From: Fistulifera solaris
Lineage: Eukaryota
Direction: 5' to 3'
Assembly: GCA_030295235.1 (NCBI GenBank)
Contig: AP026159.1
Location: 1-64,000 of the forward strand
Length of the DNA stretch: 64,000 bases
The notes under the pieces are model-generated. The model worked only from the letters and a program-made list of their open reading frames with translations, was not told where the DNA came from and made no database searches. Numbering within the stretch: position 1 is the stretch's first letter; each line of letters starts with the position of its first letter. Positions 21,846-33,954 of the stretch are shown here, piece by piece. The position numbers and the translations under genes were made by a program.

Positions 21846-22511
21846 ATGTTTGATGAAATTCCAAAAGACTGTCGATATGGTTATGCACGCGTCAGCTCTA
21901 ATTCACAACAAGATAATTTTTATTTAGAAACACAAAAATAAGAATTTAAAAAACATGGAGTTCCAGAAAAAGTATTCATGTTGAAATTGGATGTGCGGTT
22001 AACTCTAGTTAAGAAAGACCTATTTTTCAAAAATTAATTGAAGAAGAGCTACAAACAAATGATTTATTATTAGTTACTAAGATTGATAGTTGTAGTCGCA
22101 ATACGCTAGAATTTTTAACATTACAAGAAAAGATGTTTAATAAATCTATTAAATTCGTCTCATTAGATCTACGATATTCTAATGATACGGCTTTTAATAA
22201 ATTGATTTTGACTAATCTTGCCGTCATTACTAGATTTGAAACTGAGCACCGAAAGAAACGGCAACGACAAGGGATAGAAGCTGCTAAAAAAACTGGTAAA
22301 TATCGCGGAGGAAAAACGATTATTACAAAAAAAGTGGTTGCACAAGTTCAAGATTTAAAAGAAAATAAAAAATTATCGGTGATTCAAATAGCAAAAATAA
22401 CAGAAAAAAAGCCAAAGTACAATTTATAAAGTTTTAAAAGAATATTTAAACTATAAACCTGCCAATCGGTTAGTTAAGACGAATCTCAAACTATTATTAA
22501 ACCTCTTCTAA
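21846..22511 (+). pseudogene. serC: Small serine recombinase (resolvase/invertase), inactivated
   Basis: AAGGAG SD; MFDEIPKDCRYGYARVSS (catalytic Ser motif), RPIFQKL, LLVTKIDSCSR (canonical DRxxR altered), RQRQGIEAAK..GKYRG, C-terminal HTH STIYKVL; in-frame TAA at 21939 and 22010 plus frameshifts. Confidence 0.9.
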
Positions 22512-22555
22512 AACCTTACAGAAGCCTCTGGAAGAGTCTTAAATTTAATACTATA

Positions 22556-24004
22556 ATGCAAGAAAAATTAAATTTCTAAGCCGAAAAGATCGATGTCAAT
22601 CGGATTTCTTTTAAATTTCAATCATTAGAACTAGAAAGTCAAAGAAAATTAGTAAACTATCTCTTTAACATTGGTTTTAATTGTTTTGCCCAATCCGGTA
22701 AGTTGATTAAATCGGAAAAGAGGACTTAAAAGTTAGTCGTACAAACAATTTTTCGGCTATTTTTGTGAAAGATGGTCCTTATGAGGATCGCACCTTGTTC
22801 TATTTTTCTGGCAAAATGCGAATCAATTTTATCAGTATGCTAAAACTAATTCAATTCATTAAACTTATTTTCCAATGCAGTTTTAAGTCGATTGAATTTA
22901 TGTCGTATCTCTGATGTACCAATTGACTGAGAAAGCGTAGAAGATTTTTTTTATTCCTATCACGCTCAATTAAAATTAAATGTGAATTATGAAAAAAAAT
23001 AAAAAGGGTCAAATCTTAAAATTAGGAAATCGTCGAAGTAGTAGATTTTCACGAATTTATATAGAATAGAATGGATTAAAATTTGACTATGAAATGAAGG
23101 GTAAGTTTATTGAACCGTATTTCAAGTATTTCATGAGTAACAGTTGGGACGAATTTGAATTTTTCTTGGCCCAGCACTTTTTTAACTATTTTGGTACTCA
23201 GCTTTTATCGATTAATTCTCCTTATCTAACATGGTTAGCAAAAAAGATCAGAGCATTACGACCTAAACCTTATCAAATTTAACTTTTAAAACCGATTACT
23301 TTGATTCTAACATTCAGGTTAAAGAACAGAAAAAATTGATTCAGTTTTTAAAGTTTTTAGTGTATGTTCGTAATCTTGATTATGATAGCGAATTCTTAGG
23401 AGCTACTCGTTATAGATGTGTTACCTTTAAACTTAATCATTTTTTAGAATTTCTTCATGGTCCCAATTATCGTTCTACCTATCAATTAAAAAAACTTCGA
23501 GATTTCTGTGACGAAATCCAAAAGGATTTTTTTGTAAGGTCATTCAATGATAAATATTTTCAAAGTTTAATATCGGTTCCCAAAGTTGAAGTTTATAAGA
23601 AACACGATTAGATAGGGAAGTTTTGGATTGTAGATGATTTATTTTATTACATTACCCTTTCTCTTTTCCCCATATGTTCGACTCTAGTTTATCGAAGTAT
23701 GAATTTTCTGTTTTGTTTGAAATTTTTAAAATGTTTTAATTGACCGACGATCGAAAAACAAATTAACATTAAAGATTTCATTGAGAATTTTCCTTCGGCA
23801 TTATCGAATCAAAATATTCGAAAAATGAAACAGATAGTTTTAGATTCTATTCAAAGTCTGGAAAACAATTAAGTAATTGAATCAAAATTTAAAGTATTCT
23901 ATAATAGAAAATTACAATCAGTTGAGAAATTGGACATTAAAAATATTTCGGAAGGATTTGTGATTTATAAAAAGTTAAACTTTTTTTTCAGTTACCTGAT
24001 TTAG
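22556..24004 (+). pseudogene. Degenerate ~480-codon diatom-plasmid-type ORF, putative rolling-circle Rep (Rep_trans-like)
   Basis: MQEKLNF*AEKIDVNRISFKFQ...YLFNIGFN; VLSRLNLC; KGQILKLGNRRSSRFSRIYIE*NGLKFDYEMKGK; many stops and frameshifts; directly downstream of the resolvase. Confidence 0.65.
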
Positions 24005-24164
24005 AGTAAGTATTTTTGACAAACTTACGGGATAAGAGTAATCGCAGGATTTGCGATCAAATTTCTTCGAGATTAGAAGAGATTCTTATTTTACCCTGTA
24101 AAATCAAGCTTTTATTTTTGAGAAGAACACATTCGATGGGAAAAAGTTTTTGAACTATCAGAAT

Positions 24165-24482
24165 AAATATCAATTATAAGCTCAACTTAGCTTTTTACTC
24201 GCATTTTCAATTCTAGAGATTGATAAAGTATTTGACGTTGAAGAATTTTTAGATCAATTTGATATTTCAAATTCAAATCTTCGAAAAGTGAGATCTTATT
24301 TGCTGCAAACTTTGGTCTTAGTTAAAGACTGCAAACTGATCGAAAACAAATTTGTTTTAGTTCTAAAAACCAATAAACTAAAAACTGTAACCCAATTGAC
24401 GACGAATTTGATTAGTATAACAAAATTGAGTCATTTTAAAGAGCTAATTAAAATAGCTCAAGAAAATAAACATTTACTATAA
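24165..24482 (+). pseudogene. Second C-terminal fragment of the same Rep-like ORF family
   Basis: KYQL*AQLSFLLAFSILEIDKVFDVEEFLDQFDISNSNLRKVR...LIENKF aligns with KYEFSVLFEIFK..IEKQINIKDFIENFPSALSNQNIRKMK...VIESKF at 23695-23890. Confidence 0.65.
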
Positions 24483-29662: not shown

Positions 29663-30039
29663 ATGTCACATTTTACGTACATGAAAACTAATTTTCAAAA
29701 TTTATTTTATTTAGAAAAAGCATTAAATAGACTAAATATTACCTATAAGCAACAAGAAGCTACGACTGAAAATTCAAATTTAATCATCCAGCAGTTAAAT
29801 GGCTACGATATTAAATTTGACTGGAATGGACAAGAATATGAATTGGTAGCGGATATGAGTTTCTGGGAACAACCGTATCCAGTTGAAAGCTTTATTGATA
29901 AAGTTGCACAACAATATGCCGGTGAGGTTATTATTGGCGAAAGTCAAAAACTGGTTTCCAACCAATTAAATACCAACAAAATTCGGATGGTTCAAATACA
30001 TTAATTTTAGAACGATGGAATAGTACTACAGTTCTTTAA
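29663..30039 (+). CDS. ycf35: Ycf35 (frameshift near 3' end)
   Basis: MSHFTYMKT...[17 protein letters not shown]...LILERW. Confidence 0.92.
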
Positions 30040-30241
30040 CTTGATTGGGATTAAATCCGCTTTACATTCAATCAGAAGTAATTCTGGTTGCAAGAGATTT
30101 AACGATATGTATTCAATCTATAAATTATCATCAAAAATTAGCGTTTAAAGTCAAATAGATAGATCATATTTTTTATTGAGTCGTAGTTTTCAAATTACAA
30201 TCTTTTTAAAACTCTAAAATAGATTAAACGAGCAAGCTCGG

Positions 30242-30276
30242 TTAGTAAAAGTGAAAAACTTTTTCACTTTTACTAA
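30242..30276. repeat. Perfect inverted repeat with 17-bp arms
   Basis: TTAGTAAAAGTGAAAAA-C-TTTTTCACTTTTACTAA. Confidence 0.85.
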
Positions 30277-30419
30277 TTGGAATTTTTATCAATTTATTCA
30301 AGGATAATTATTTTCGAAATTTTTATCGTTTTACAGCTAGAAAAACTTAACAAAGTTTGAAAGTTTTTACTAGATCAGGCTTAATTAGTTCACGAATCAT
30401 TTTTATTATAAGTACATGT

Positions 30420-30620: not shown

Positions 30621-30861
30621 TTTAAATTACTATTTTAATAAGTATATATCATTTCTATTAACCGTTTTCTATTTTTACTCAACTCAATAAATTAGTAAAA
30701 ACTTTTATGCCGACAGTTCTTTATGTAATTTTCGCTTTGTTAATTAATTTTTGCACCCCAGAAATTCAAGTCAATAAGAAATCAATCAAAAACAATTCGA
30801 CACAAAAATAACACTAGGCTTTCTTTATCAATATTTTGAAGGAGAAGTTTTAACAAATGAA

Positions 30862-31682
30862 ATGGTCCAGAGTCGGATCAGAATAATTTACATATATGTT
30901 TTAATCTCTCTTACAATTAATTTTTTTTGCCATCAAACAATAATTTCGATTGTAGACCAATCTCGAGTTACTTCAACAGCAACATCTAGAGAAAGATTGA
31001 CTACGAATGAGGGAGAGTTGACGAAGTTAATAGCATTTGATATACCAAAATCGGGACAATTTGGAAAGGCAAATATAAGTAAAAATCCGTCTATACGTGA
31101 AATTGATCGCAGTCTTAGTCCAACTTACGAGGCGTATGAAAAGAGTATGATACCGACGGGCGTCTTAGAAAAAAGGTTCAACACTAACACGTGTCCAACT
31201 GAAAAATTTACAATCTTAGCTACAGACCCTGTGGCAGGTCTTCCTAACGATAAATCAATTTCTGAAGCAATATTAATAATTCAAGCTGAACACGAAAATC
31301 TATTCAAGTTCGCAAGCAGAGAGCTGAATCAGGATTTGGCAATACGAGTTAATCTCGACTTTCTAATTGTAGGTCCATTTCCATTCAAATATGCTGATGT
31401 AAAAACTCCAGTATCATCAGAATTTTTGCACAAACTTCAGCCATGCATGACTCTAGAAAGAATGGCGTATGACATAGGGGTAAAACTTGCAAGACAAAAA
31501 AACGATTTCTTAATCGACAACTTGGTAGTGAAATTGTTGGTCCAAAAAGCACCGAAAATGTTGCTCACTTAATTGATCTATATTTCGTTCCAGATAATGA
31601 AAAAGCAATTGTTAAAAAAAATATTTTAGAGGGCGCAAGATATGAGGGTATTGACACTAAAATATTCTTTATAAATGAATAA
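30862..31682 (+). CDS. Putative secreted nuclease toxin (signal-peptide-like N-terminus, PD-(D/E)xK-like C-terminus); one A-run frameshift at 31496-31502
   Basis: RIRIIYIYVLISLTINFF h-region; EKFTILATDP...SISEAILIIQAE...NLDFLIVG...YADVKTP; restored tail HLIDLYFVPDNEKAIVKKNILEGARYEGIDTKIFFINE*. Confidence 0.6.
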
Positions 31683-31701
31683 TACAAATTTTTAATTCAA
31701 G

Positions 31702-32246
31702 ATGAGTAATAATAAATCACCTGACGAGTCTCATATTCTACTTCAAAATGAGCATTTTTTAACTGAAAAGAGTCCAAGTCTAGCAAAGTATTTTTCAGTT
31801 GCTTATTTTACTAAAATATCTTTCGTAAATTGTAATTTTGAAAAGTTCAACTACCAGGCATAATTTTTGGATCTTGTAATTTTCAAAATTGCATATTTAA
31901 TGATTTTTTGGGTTATAAAACTACATTTGGAGCGTGTTATTTTGAAGATTGCAAAATAATTGATTCTGACATGACAAGAGGAGATTTTGAAAGTACCCAT
32001 TTTAAAAACTGTGAGTTTATAGGTGTCAATTTATCAGCAAGTGATATTTCTAGTTGCACATTTAAGGAAACAAAGTTTCTTAAAAGTAATCTGACAGGTA
32101 TTGGAATCTACCATAGTTCTTTGGAAGATTGCAAAATAACCAATTGTGAAATGGAAAGACCATACCTTACGAATACACAGTTAAAAAGTATGGATTATAA
32201 CTTTAATACAAAGTCAAAATTTATGCGTTATGAGTTCCCTGATTAG
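31702..32246 (+). CDS. Pentapeptide-repeat protein 1 (putative immunity protein); A-run frameshift at about 31841
   Basis: FVNCN, FGSCN, FQNCI, FEDCK, FKNCE, FKETK repeats; the paralog has GAAAAAG where this copy has GAAAAG, which restores the frame. Confidence 0.85.
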
Positions 32247-32375
32247 TATATTTTAATTCCCATTTTAAATTTTAACTTGTTTGAAAAAATGCTACAGTCA
32301 AACTAAGATTTAATTAATGACTAGAAAATAGTTTTTATAAATGAATAAAACAAGAATACAAACTTATAATGAAAA

Positions 32376-32720
32376 ATGAACCAAGCTAAATCAGCGGACG
32401 AGTACCAAATTTTGCTTCAAAATCAACATTTTTTAACTGAAAAGACCTTAAGCATAGCAGAGTCTAGTGCCGTTAGTTTTTCTCTTGGAACATCTTTCGT
32501 AAATTGTAATTTTGAAAAAGTTCGCCGATTAGAGGTAATTTTTGGATCTTATAACTTTCAAAATTGCGCATTTAACGATACTCGGAAATTAACTTTTTCA
32601 GTTTATTGTTTTGAAGATTGCCAAATAACCGATTGTAAGGTGAAAAAACCAGAGTTTGAGAATGCCCATTTAAAAGGTGTATGTTTTTGGTTAACCTATC
32701 TAATCTATCTTAGGTCTTAG
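32376..32720 (+). CDS. Pentapeptide-repeat protein 2 (shorter paralog)
   Basis: ILLQNQHFLTEK and SFVNCNFEK shared with copy 1. Confidence 0.8.
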   Translation: MNQAKSADEYQILLQNQHFLTEKTLSIAESSAVSFSLGTSFVNCNFEKVRRLEVIFGSYNFQNCAFNDTRKLTFSVYCFEDCQITDCKVKKPEFENAHLKGVCFWLTYLIYLRS

Positions 32721-32724
32721 TTAA

Positions 32725-32815
32725 TGAGAAATCAATTGTTAAAGAGAAGATTTTAGAAAAAGCGTGAGATGTGGGTAGTGATGAAGGAATACTTTTCATA
32801 AATGATAACGAAGAA
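32725..32815 (+). pseudogene. Orphan copy of the nuclease-toxin C-terminal tail
   Basis: NEKSIVKEKILEKA*DVGSDEGILFIND versus NEKAIVKKNILEGARYEGIDTKIFFINE. Confidence 0.7.
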
Positions 32816-32871: not shown

Positions 32872-33954
32872 TTAACCATTAACAGCTGGAGCTGTTAAAG
32901 CAACTGGTAATACTTCACCTGAAGCTAAATCTAATGGGAAGTTGTGAGCGTTACGTTCGTGCATTACTTCCATACCTAAGTCAGCACGGTTAACGATGTC
33001 AGCCCATGTGTTAATAACACGGCCTTGAGAGTCAACAACTGATTGGTTGAAGTTGAAACCGTTTAAATTGAACGCCATTGTGCTGATACCCATACTTGTT
33101 AACCAAATACCTAAAACAGGCCATAAAGCTAAGAAGAAGTGTAAAGCACGAGAGTTATTGAATGAAGCGTATTGGAAAATTAAACGACCAAAGTAACCAT
33201 GAGCGGCAACGATGTTGTAAGTTTCTTCTTCTTGACCAAATTTGTAACCGTAGTTAGTAGATTCGCTTTCAGTTGTTTCACGAATTAAAGAAGAAGTTAC
33301 TAATGAACCGTGCATAGCAGAGAATAATGAACCACCAAATACACCAGCAACACCAGCCATGTGGAATGGGTGCATTAAAATGTTGTGCTCAGCTTGGAAT
33401 ACGATCATGAAGTTGAAAGTACCAGAAATACCTAAAGGCATACCATCAGAGAATGAACCTTGACCAATTGGGTATACTAAGAATACAGCGCTTGCTGCTG
33501 CTACTGGAGCTGAGAAAGCTACGAAGATCCAAGGACGCATACCTAAACGGTAGCTTAATTCCCATTCACGACCCATGTATGAAGCTACACCTAATAAGAA
33601 GTGGCAAACGATTAATTGGTAAGGACCACCGTTGTATAACCACTCATCAACTGAAGCTGCTTCCCAAATTGGGTAGAAGTGCATACCAATAGCGTTTGAA
33701 CTAGGGATAACTGCACCAGAAATGATGTTGTTACCGTATAATAAAGAACCTGCTACTGGTTCACGGATACCATCAATATCAACTGGAGGAGCTGCGATGA
33801 ATGCAATGATGTAACAAGTTGTAGCTGTTAATAATGTAGGGAACATTAAACAACCAAACCAACCGATGTATAAACGGTTTTCAGTACTTGTAATCCAACC
33901 TGCGAAACGTTCCCATAATGAAACGCTTTGACGTCTTTCTAAAGTTGCTGTCAT
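32872..33954 (-). CDS. psbA: Photosystem II D1 protein
   Basis: Intact 360-aa D1, no intron. Confidence 0.99.

What the first reader, a model, noticed from the sequence alone, without database searches (positions are those of the whole stretch)
30862..31682. Signal-peptide ORF with a restriction-endonuclease-fold toxin-like domain, possibly intact
The N-terminus is basic then hydrophobic (MVQSRIRIIYIYVLISLTINFF), followed by a Ser/Thr-rich linker. The C-terminal domain has a helix Glu (SISEA), a strand Asp (LDF) and DxK (DVK), matching the PD-(D/E)xK catalytic order. Its F..LA.DP lead-in recalls bacterial toxin C-termini of the CdiA tRNase/REase type. Adding one A in the 7-A run at 31496-31502 gives a ~273-aa ORF without stops that ends 19 bp before its partner gene, so it may be functional.
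Basis: partly seen in the sequence, partly recalled or inferred. Interest (0 to 1): 0.78.

Follow-up and report, generated by a model that had tools for sequence, protein, structure and literature searches.

The report
Decayed toxin-immunity cassette in diatom plastid
This is a recently broken copy of a bacterial-type nuclease toxin gene with its predicted antidote gene in a diatom's chloroplast DNA; intact copies ride on small plasmids of the kind known from diatoms, which suggests that some unexplained chloroplast genes of diatoms are selfish toxin-antidote cassettes.

Summary
The window is a diatom plastid genome; the ORF lies in an insertion between ycf35 and psbA. The toxin call holds. 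E135/D166/D179/K181 are kept in 39-40 of 40 aligned sequences. A model of an intact homologue ranks CdiA-CT PD-(D/E)xK toxins first, though only at Z 6.3-6.9. The same domain tips Bacteroidota eCIS-core and DUF4280 proteins. A pentapeptide-repeat gene follows it in 6 of 7 bacterial and 18 of 20 algal-type loci, and a complex model supports binding (0.77; best control 0.00). Two intact pairs lie on circular contigs with a serine recombinase.

'Possibly intact' fails. Contigs of 4 of 4 Illumina runs keep the 7-A run and an upstream break and add a third, while they close the partner gene's break. 'Signal peptide' fails too: the gene starts near 30707, and the segment is an internal hydrophobic stretch.

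Best reading: a recently pseudogenised toxin of a plasmid-borne toxin-immunity (addiction-type) cassette. No toxin role turned up in 9 literature searches. This scan earlier noted only a recombinase-pentapeptide stub in a brown-algal plastome. Activity is untested.

The parts
30707..30811 (+). 5' piece of the toxin gene (34 codons, first hydrophobic segment), ending at a break in the 5-A run 30804-30808
   Evidence: tblastn of P0003, P0004, P0016, P0017, P0023, P0048 and P0064 1-30; run unchanged in records 1, 10, 17, 25
30862..31572 (+).
31264..31404 (+). Predicted active-site codons E135 (31264), D166 (31357), D179 (31396), K181 (31402)
   Evidence: conserved in 39, 40, 40, 40 of 40 rows of alignment A8
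31496..31502 (+). 7-A run: real frameshift; also part of an in-phase A_AAA_AAC heptamer (31497-31503)
   Evidence: unchanged in records 1, 11, 17, 27; 7, 7 and 6 A in the three assembly copies
31491..31682 (+). 3' piece of the toxin gene (fourth strand with the conserved His, last helix, last strand); in 4 of 4 runs broken once more at the A run 31614-31621
31702..32246 (+). Pentapeptide-repeat partner 1, predicted immunity protein; the break in the A run at 31841-31844 is an assembly error
   Evidence: Pfam Pentapeptide_4 E 1e-15; 52-60% identity to the L014 partner; gap closed in 4 of 4 runs
32315..32353 (+). Remnant of a toxin 3' tip (KIVFINE-stop) ahead of partner 2
   Evidence: 82% identical to 31649-31687 (repeat D4)
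32376..32720 (+). Pentapeptide-repeat partner 2: shorter, diverged orphan copy (114 aa; matches 1-104 of 160)
32687..32815 (+). Second decayed toxin tip with in-frame stops
   Evidence: tblastn to P0005 71% over 28 aa, E 1e-8
29663..30027 (+). ycf35, left flank of the insertion (gene name from my recognition of the translation)
32872..33954 (-). psbA, right flank of the insertion (gene name from my recognition of the translation)

Best explanation
The finding is the middle piece of a recently pseudogenised toxin gene. It belongs to a toxin-immunity cassette that moves on diatom-type plasmids and gets inserted into plastid chromosomes. SHOWN (computationally): the intact form is about 385-400 aa, with variable N-termini (often two hydrophobic segments), a linker and a C-terminal domain with invariant E..D..DxK. 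That domain also forms the tip of Bacteroidota polymorphic toxins. It is followed, about 20 bp later, by a 160-aa pentapeptide-repeat gene. Intact pairs occur on circular contigs with a serine recombinase and a ~490-aa ORF, and are under purifying selection. This copy has 2 (window) or 3 (short-read contigs) one-base breaks in A runs, while partner 1 is whole. INFERRED: the domain is a metal-dependent nuclease (tRNA or DNA; I lean to tRNA, because the D-for-S site matches Bp1026b). The pentapeptide beta-helix binds the loop and helix just after DxK and neutralises it. In a plastid the pair would act as an addiction or drive module: a plastid that loses the plasmid, or is left without the matching immunity protein, is damaged. 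Once the cassette sits in the chromosome the toxin can decay while immunity genes pile up as orphans, which is the arrangement here: toxin, immunity, tip, immunity, tip. This lineage first diverged into a new toxin-immunity specificity and lost the toxin only recently.
For: Homologues: 58 hits at E<=1e-3. Conservation. Fold: the AF2 model of P0019 (pLDDT 93.7) puts 5j4a (Z 6.9, rmsd 3.1, 108 aligned), 4g6u (6.3, 3.8, 130), 4g6v (6.3, 4.1, 116) and 4zqu (5.5) among the top 5 of 48,161 chains. The same entries lead Foldseek, 4g6v is first for the window's own model (Z 4.8), and Atlas neighbours are Tox-REase-7/2/3/5 and EC869-like clusters (0.85-0.90, leads only). Carriers: eCIS_core in P0027, P0038, P0046 and DUF4280 in P0062. 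Pairing: 6 of 7 GTDB loci and 18 of 20 metagenome loci. Complex: score 0.77, best of 3 controls 0.00; the mark was reached by 51 of 78 solved complexes and 2 of 108 mismatched pairs; runs agree in at least 56% of contacts; partner pLDDT at least 76. Circles: L014 and L015, terminal overlaps 97 and 127 nt, Resolvase E 6e-25. Selection: nuclease dN/dS median 0.25 over 24 of 28 pairs, partner 0.31 over 53 of 55 pairs (pairs with dS<=0.05 left out). Breaks are real. Recent loss: long neutral decay would leave stops (chance of none in 250 codons 0.00015 at 0.2 changes per site), yet the pieces hold none. New specificity: the window's partner differs from L014's at 16 of 20 predicted contact positions against 41 of 110 others (p 0.0005), and the window branch has dN/dS near 1 (0.46-1.92 over 15 triplets).
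Against: No activity is shown. Fold scores are middling (the tool warns that Z under 8 may be a common arrangement; best Foldseek E 0.11). No Pfam, NCBIfam or PADLOC toxin family matches. In the complex, 1 of 3 runs scored 0.01, the toxin chain's pLDDT was 45-55, alignments were not used, and 7 of 44 blind neighbour pairs passed in calibration. The 20 algal-type loci were picked with one tight alignment and are not independent (L030/L031 and L016/L017 are near copies). Toxin-first decay is only a trend: 8 loci have a broken or partial toxin with an unbroken partner, 1 (L020) the reverse, 4 both broken, 5 both open and 2 have no partner. The toxin is a 2.4-fold larger target, so this is not significant. 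The contact-position excess may partly reflect outward-facing residues varying more, and on the toxin side it was 8 of 11 against 62 of 107 (p 0.52). Plastid location of the circles is inferred. The bacterial rows form their own branch, so the direction of transfer is not shown. Run X1 may be the source sample, which leaves 3 independent runs.
Confidence: 0.7

Rival explanations
1. The gene is intact in the organism and the 7-A run is an assembly error.
For: The assembly drops bases in homopolymers, essential genes are split, and the neighbouring partner gene's break is such an error.
Against: Contigs of 4 of 4 Illumina runs bridge the 7-A and 5-A runs unchanged with no other letters, and show one more break. 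All three assembly copies have 7 or fewer A. Contigs drop rare variants, so a minority intact allele is not excluded.
Confidence: 0.03
2. The broken gene still yields an active nuclease, either as the 236-aa product or by recoding: a -1 ribosomal shift at the in-phase A_AAA_AAC heptamer, or polymerase slippage in the A runs, keeping the toxin at a low, tolerable level.
For: All four catalytic residues are kept, there are no in-frame stops, and all breaks lie in A runs. The heptamer is in the right phase (sequence; its slipperiness is recalled knowledge). AF2 places a strand in the out-of-frame tail at 221-225. Partner 1 is whole.
Against: The 236-aa product lacks the invariant His, the last helix and the last strand; tail pLDDT is 42-76 and the fold match falls from Z 6.9 to 4.8. 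In the runs a second, non-canonical shift would be needed at 31614. The intact homologues printed do not keep the heptamer.
Confidence: 0.08
3. The family is not a toxin in algae but a plasmid housekeeping nuclease (replication, resolution or integration), and the pentapeptide protein is a DNA mimic or gyrase guard of the Qnr/MfpA kind.
For: It sits beside a recombinase and a ~490-aa ORF on circles. PD-(D/E)xK folds have many roles (PMC9086364, passages). The partner hits Qnr/MfpA models, far below their cut-offs.
Against: The same pair occurs as toxin tip plus downstream gene in bacterial polymorphic-toxin loci. N-termini are swapped, and there are orphan tips and tandem partners. Other immunity-like genes lie in the same loci (Colicin_immun above cut-off in L030; Imm8 weak). 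The Haslea plasmids listed in PMC8070900 (passage) differ in their extra ORFs.
Confidence: 0.1
4. The intact toxin is an exported weapon rather than a within-plastid addiction module: its hydrophobic N-terminus takes it through or into a membrane to hit a rival plastid in the zygote, or a bacterium.
For: Two hydrophobic segments in P0064, P0063, P0074 and the window pieces; toxin-first gene order; polymorphic N-termini; an apparent specificity change, which suits conflict between genotypes.
Against: Several homologues have no such segment (P0010, P0032, P0015) or are domain-only (192 aa, P0093-P0095). The N-terminal part is less constrained (dN/dS 0.55-1.15). Four membranes surround a diatom plastid (recalled), and no export route was found.
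Confidence: 0.09

Closest known systems
CdiA-CT PD-(D/E)xK toxins: Bp1026b (4G6V), BpE479 (5J4A), E. coli 4G6U, YPIII (4ZQU)
   Same: Best structural matches; E, D, D, K active-site set as listed for Bp1026b (E187, D214, D223, K242; PMC9086364, passages); C-terminal tip followed by a small partner gene; orphan tips and partners.
   Different: 6-15% identity; no filamentous CdiA body or CdiB; the partner is a pentapeptide beta-helix (0 mentions in PMC9086364 and in the held part of PMC3482391); located in plastid DNA and plasmid-like circles.
Tox-REase-1 to -10 polymorphic toxin families (Zhang et al. 2012, PMC3482391)
   Same: Same fold class and role as exchangeable tips; nearest named Atlas clusters.
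   Different: No Pfam Tox-REase match in 43 members at E<=0.1; DxK rather than the usual ExK/QxK; listed immunity proteins are Imm49/52/54, HEAT and others, none pentapeptide.
Unnamed Bacteroidota eCIS-core and DUF4280 toxins with pentapeptide neighbours (L007-L011, L013; P0027, P0038, P0046, P0062)
   Same: Homologous domain (30-36% to P0064) and the same downstream partner type.
   Different: Long delivery N-termini; shorter loop after DxK; separate starred branch, 100/98; no name or study found.
Diatom plasmids of the pCf1/pCf2 and Haslea pHSC/pHSM kind, and plasmid-derived plastid insertions
   Same: Small circles with a serine recombinase and a ~480-515-aa ORF; the ycf35-psbA spacer is a known insertion site (PMC8070900, passages). 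QYB19051.1 (384 aa) and UHY40958.1 (342 aa) match by length orf384 and orf342 in PMC8268801 and PMC9044688.
   Different: Those papers call the ORFs non-conserved or unknown; 'toxin' occurs 0 times in the seven algal plastid papers checked for it, plus the eustigmatophyte preprint.
Katablepharid mitochondrial HpaII restriction-modification system (PMC8099122)
   Same: Flavobacteria-related toxin-antitoxin-like nuclease pair in an organelle genome, patchy and decaying, proposed to bias organelle inheritance.
   Different: Mitochondrion, with a methylase as antidote; here a plastid, a protein-binding antidote, plasmid-borne and spread over many lineages.

Membership tests
PD-(D/E)xK nuclease superfamily | Catalytic E (helix), D, and (D/E)xK on the core strands | tested here: met
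   E 39/40, D 40/40, D 40/40, K 40/40; E in helix 130-144, D at strand 167-170, DxK in strand 177-181 of the model
PD-(D/E)xK nuclease superfamily | [quoted passage not shown] | tested here: met
   P0019 model pLDDT 93.7; top matches are this fold, Z 6.9/6.3/6.3, rmsd 3.1-4.1, 108-130 aligned; middling scores
PD-(D/E)xK nuclease superfamily | Complete core in the window's own 236-aa product | tested here: not met
   Fourth strand with His, last helix and strand lie in another frame
PD-(D/E)xK nuclease superfamily | Metal-dependent nuclease activity | not testable with these tools
   needs an assay
Polymorphic toxin system | Toxin domain as exchangeable C-terminal tip on different N-termini | tested here: met
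   eCIS_core, DUF4280 and several algal-type N-termini
Polymorphic toxin system | Cognate immunity gene directly downstream | tested here: met
   6 of 7 and 18 of 20 loci; binding supported by a model only
Polymorphic toxin system | Neutralisation of the toxin by the partner | not testable with these tools
   needs co-expression
Polymorphic toxin system | Orphan tips and extra immunity genes downstream | tested here: met
   32315-32353, 32376-32720, 32687-32815; L029 orphan tip
Polymorphic toxin system | A delivery or secretion route | tested here: inconclusive
   Present in bacterial carriers; in algae only hydrophobic segments, absent from some members
CDI (CdiB/CdiA/CdiI) | Large filamentous CdiA with CdiB transporter | tested here: not met
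   Intact algal-type proteins are about 390 aa with no such Pfam or NCBIfam domain; no such gene among the ORFs listed for the window
Tox-REase-1 to -10 and CdiA_C Pfam families | Profile match at the curated cut-off | tested here: not met
   0 of 43 members at E<=0.1; window ORF none at E<=1
Type II toxin-antitoxin module | Unstable, usually upstream, DNA-binding antitoxin with autoregulation | tested here: inconclusive
   Partner lies downstream and shows no DNA-binding domain; stability not testable
Diatom plasmids (pCf1/pCf2, pHSC type) | Small circle with serine recombinase and a ~480-515-aa ORF | tested here: met
   L014 (5.6 kb) and L015 (4.6 kb); the window's copy itself is chromosomal; no direct comparison with named plasmids was made
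Cleaved signal peptide | N-terminal position of the basic-hydrophobic segment | tested here: not met
   Segment equals residues about 54-84 of intact homologues; SignalP not available

The most novel reading that the evidence does not exclude
Diatom plastids host an active, diversifying polymorphic toxin-immunity system. Plasmids carry nuclease toxins of several kinds (this PD-(D/E)xK family, RelE-like, colicin-immunity-linked) with cognate antidotes, among them a pentapeptide-repeat immunity protein not described before. Plastid chromosomes collect orphan immunity genes. The system enforces plasmid retention and may decide which parental plastid survives after sex. Many 'non-conserved ORFs' of pennate plastomes would be its parts or debris.
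Probability: 0.45. Interest if true: 0.9.

Novelty: new variant of a known kind. Interest (0 to 1): 0.72.

Why it matters
Papers on diatom and raphidophyte plastomes describe plasmid-derived insertions full of ORFs of unknown function (PMC3971590, PMC6608930, PMC8070900, PMC9235467; passages). A toxin-immunity identity would give those ORFs a function and explain how small plasmids with no evident benefit persist in plastids. It would extend organelle toxin-antitoxin conflict from one mitochondrial case to plastids, and add a new toxin family with a pentapeptide-repeat antidote that also exists, unnamed, in Bacteroidota. It is directly testable in E. coli with the intact L014 pair, and might offer a selection-free marker for plastid plasmids. 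The copy in this window is itself most likely dead, which lowers its own value.

Tried and rejected
Pfam, NCBIfam and PADLOC gave no toxin family for the domain. A PDB sequence search found nothing (best E 1.6). Foldseek had no match at E<=0.001. The Atlas search with the window's partial domain gave only unnamed viral clusters at 0.78-0.81, which is chance level. The word-index search with the window ORF found only its own record, and the 'longer' search with A2 found none, though long carriers exist. No homologue turned up in IMG/VR or PLSDB plasmids. The first metagenome scan found nothing. No intact or nuclear copy was found in G000, only the three plastid copies (lower bound). Expression is not shown: metatranscriptome X4 covers 30673-32774 at depth about 3-15 against about 630,000 at psbA, DNA may be present, and X2 is only guessed to be RNA. 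Promoter-like sites were no more frequent than in shuffles (11 against 15.1). The tree is unrooted, and no donor or direction can be read (61 of 126 candidate rows kept after length and redundancy filters). The RelE-like alignment found nothing meaningful in the PDB. Literature: 9 searches; three that joined diatom or plastid terms with toxin returned 0 papers. The library lacks most subscription papers, and no supplements were read, so ORF annotation tables there could bear on novelty.

Full report
Setting. The window is the first 64 kb of G000:C60, a 232.6-kb contig holding the region twice; C61 (116 kb) holds a third copy. The gene order psb28, syfB, rps4, rps16, ycf35, insertion, psbA, ccs1, ycf46, secA (names from my recognition of the translations) is that of a diatom plastid. 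The ycf35-psbA spacer is a known site of plasmid-derived insertions (PMC8070900, abstract and passages). The assembly loses bases in homopolymers: 38 of 39 differences between C61 and the window are such losses, and clpC, ycf35 and rps4 are split. A sequencing error was therefore a fair first guess.

Observation. The 236-aa ORF, its motifs, the 7-A run and the second frame ending 19 bp before the next gene are as described. A phmmer search found 58 proteins at E<=0.001. They align to both frames, so the second frame is the true C-terminus. They also show that the gene starts earlier: six homologues match a piece from ATG 30707 in another frame. About 80 linker residues are missing in frame relative to P0064.

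Are the breaks real? I laid contigs of four Illumina runs from four studies (4 of 22 listed). All four bridge the 5-A run (30804-30808) and the 7-A run without change. All four have one base fewer at 31614, a further break in the toxin tail, and one base more at 31840, which makes the partner gene whole. The test thus corrected an assembly error 340 bp away but not this one. X1 may be the source sample, and contigs hide rare alleles. The window's 8-A run at 31614 may be a real strain difference: C61 shortens it by two, as it does the 8-T run, and L023 has the same in-frame 8-A run.

What the domain is. E135, D166, D179 and K181 are kept in 39, 40, 40 and 40 of 40 rows. No Pfam, NCBIfam or PADLOC family matches. 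An AF2 model of the intact homologue P0019 (pLDDT 93.7) was compared with 48,161 chains. CdiA-CT toxins took ranks 1, 2, 3 and 5 (Z 6.9, 6.3, 6.3, 5.5; rmsd 3.1-4.1), followed by other PD-(D/E)xK proteins. Foldseek ranked the same entries first but not significantly (E 0.11-0.43). The window's own product gave 4g6v first at Z 4.8. Atlas features point to Tox-REase-7/2/3/5 and EC869-like clusters at 0.85-0.90 (leads only). Each score is middling, but they agree with one another and with the conserved residues. The E, D, D, K set matches that listed for the tRNase Bp1026b (PMC9086364, passages); other members of the fold are DNases, so the target is open.

Context in bacteria. The domain is the C-terminal tip of proteins with eCIS_core (P0027, P0038, P0046) or DUF4280 (P0062) domains. 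A scan of GTDB genomes gave 7 loci, 6 Bacteroidota and 1 Anabaena. In 6 of 7 the next gene is a pentapeptide-repeat protein; the Anabaena locus is the exception.

Context in algae. A metagenome scan with a tight alignment gave 20 AT-rich loci. In 18 of 20 a homologue of the window's partner follows directly. L014 and L015 are circular (overlaps 97 and 127 nt; 2 of 20) and carry an intact toxin, the partner, a serine recombinase and a large ORF like those of diatom plasmids. L016, L019, L022 and L029 adjoin plastid genes (clpC/ycf35, atpA, ftsH, rps4/ycf35). Named relatives are from Climaconeis cf. scalaris (QYB19051.1), Thalassionema frauenfeldii (UHY40958.1) and, as an N-terminal fragment, Fibrocapsa japonica (YP_010444279.1), all 'hypothetical'. 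The nuclease domain and partner are under purifying selection among these loci (median dN/dS 0.25 and 0.31). Broken toxins are common: 8 loci have a broken or partial toxin with an unbroken partner, 1 the reverse, 4 both broken, 5 both open and 2 have no partner (my tally; several genes are cut by contig ends). Given gene lengths, this is a trend only.

Do the two proteins bind? The natural L014 pair scored 0.77 against a best control of 0.00. The mark was reached by 51 of 78 solved complexes and 2 of 108 mismatched pairs; runs agree in at least 56% of contacts; partner pLDDT was at least 76. One of three runs failed, the toxin chain was poorly folded (45-55), and 7 of 44 blind neighbours passed in calibration. 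The predicted interface is the loop and helix after DxK against one face of the beta-helix. I know of no solved complex of this kind (recalled), and none appeared in the fold searches.

History of this copy. Its end branch is long (0.84 against a median of 0.33), with dN/dS near 1 for the toxin and mostly above 1 for partner 1 (wide intervals, crude counting method, and the partner's tail aligns poorly). Long neutral decay is unlikely, because stops and loss of catalytic residues would be expected. The partner differs from L014's at 16 of 20 predicted contacts against 41 of 110 other sites, whereas other algal partners are equally conserved at both (0.88, 0.86). The toxin side shows no significant excess. 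The simplest story is divergence to a new specificity followed by recent slippage in A runs. Downstream lie a toxin-tip remnant, a second shorter partner and another decayed tip, the orphan pattern of polymorphic-toxin loci.

Wider pattern. The window also holds a decayed recombinase and plasmid-type ORF at 21846-24461 and three tandem cassettes at 48207-52912. These pair a RelE-like tip (TIGR02683, E 0.0044, below cut-off) with a partner whose kin hit Imm8 weakly (2 of 6 members, best E 0.0055). L030 carries a Colicin_immun match above cut-off. These are leads, weaker than the main case.

Literature. I saw find-passages (not whole texts, no supplements) of PMC11019260, PMC8268801, PMC13060386, PMC8070900, PMC9044688, PMC9235467, PMC3971590, PMC6608930, PMC3482391 (first 300,000 characters), PMC9086364, PMC10933656 and PMC8099122, and the listings of 9 searches. 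The algal papers treat these ORFs as unknown and do not use the word toxin; the two toxin reviews do not mention pentapeptide immunity. The nearest precedent is a restriction-modification pair in a protist mitochondrion (PMC8099122).

Verdict. This copy is most likely a recent pseudogene. The family it reveals, a polymorphic-toxin tip with a pentapeptide-repeat antidote on diatom-type plasmids and in plastid chromosomes, appears undescribed and is easy to test. It works like a CdiA-CT/CdiI pair but is not a CDI member nor any Pfam Tox-REase family. Novelty: new variant of a known kind. Interest 0.72.

Noticed in passing
window 48207-52912 (-): Three tandem cassettes of a RelE/ParE-like toxin tip (49391-49714 TIGR02683 E 0.0044; others frameshifted in the assembly), each followed by an Imm8-like gene; relatives in L023, L027, L029 and again in L039/L040.
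   Followed up: partly
window 21846-24461 (+): Fragmented serine recombinase and ~490-aa plasmid-type ORF: an integrated diatom-type plasmid remnant near groEL; breaks not checked against reads.
   Followed up: partly
L014:1-5556 and L015:1-4616: Complete circular plasmid-like contigs with intact toxin, partner, recombinase and large ORF; L014 has a further unknown 293-aa ORF.
   Followed up: partly
L030:253-1692, L028:829-2502, L032:1395-2690, L026:507-1016: Further toxin-like ORFs with variable N-termini, followed in L028, L030 and L032 by small genes; the L030 partner matches Colicin_immun PF09204 above cut-off, L032's weakly.
   Followed up: partly
L018:1947-2468, L025:2137-2694, L027:1558-2079: Extra, more distant pentapeptide-repeat genes near the cassette, possibly orphan immunity genes of other specificities.
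   Followed up: no
P0043: A single 391-aa ORF joining the nuclease domain to the pentapeptide partner; a natural fusion or a lost stop.
   Followed up: no
window 51139-51420 (-): Partial duplicate of the C-terminus of the 345-aa ORF at 53752-54789 (ycf90-like by my recall), between the toxin-like cassettes.
   Followed up: no
window 30238-30280: Perfect 17-bp-arm hairpin after ycf35 at the left edge of the insertion.
   Followed up: no
G000:C60 and C61: The plastid genome is present three times in the assembly with systematic homopolymer losses; frameshift-based findings in this genome need short-read checks.
   Followed up: yes
L008:5356-7738, L011:5311-7643, L013: Bacteroidota loci continue downstream as strings of small immunity-like genes and further toxin tips.
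   Followed up: no
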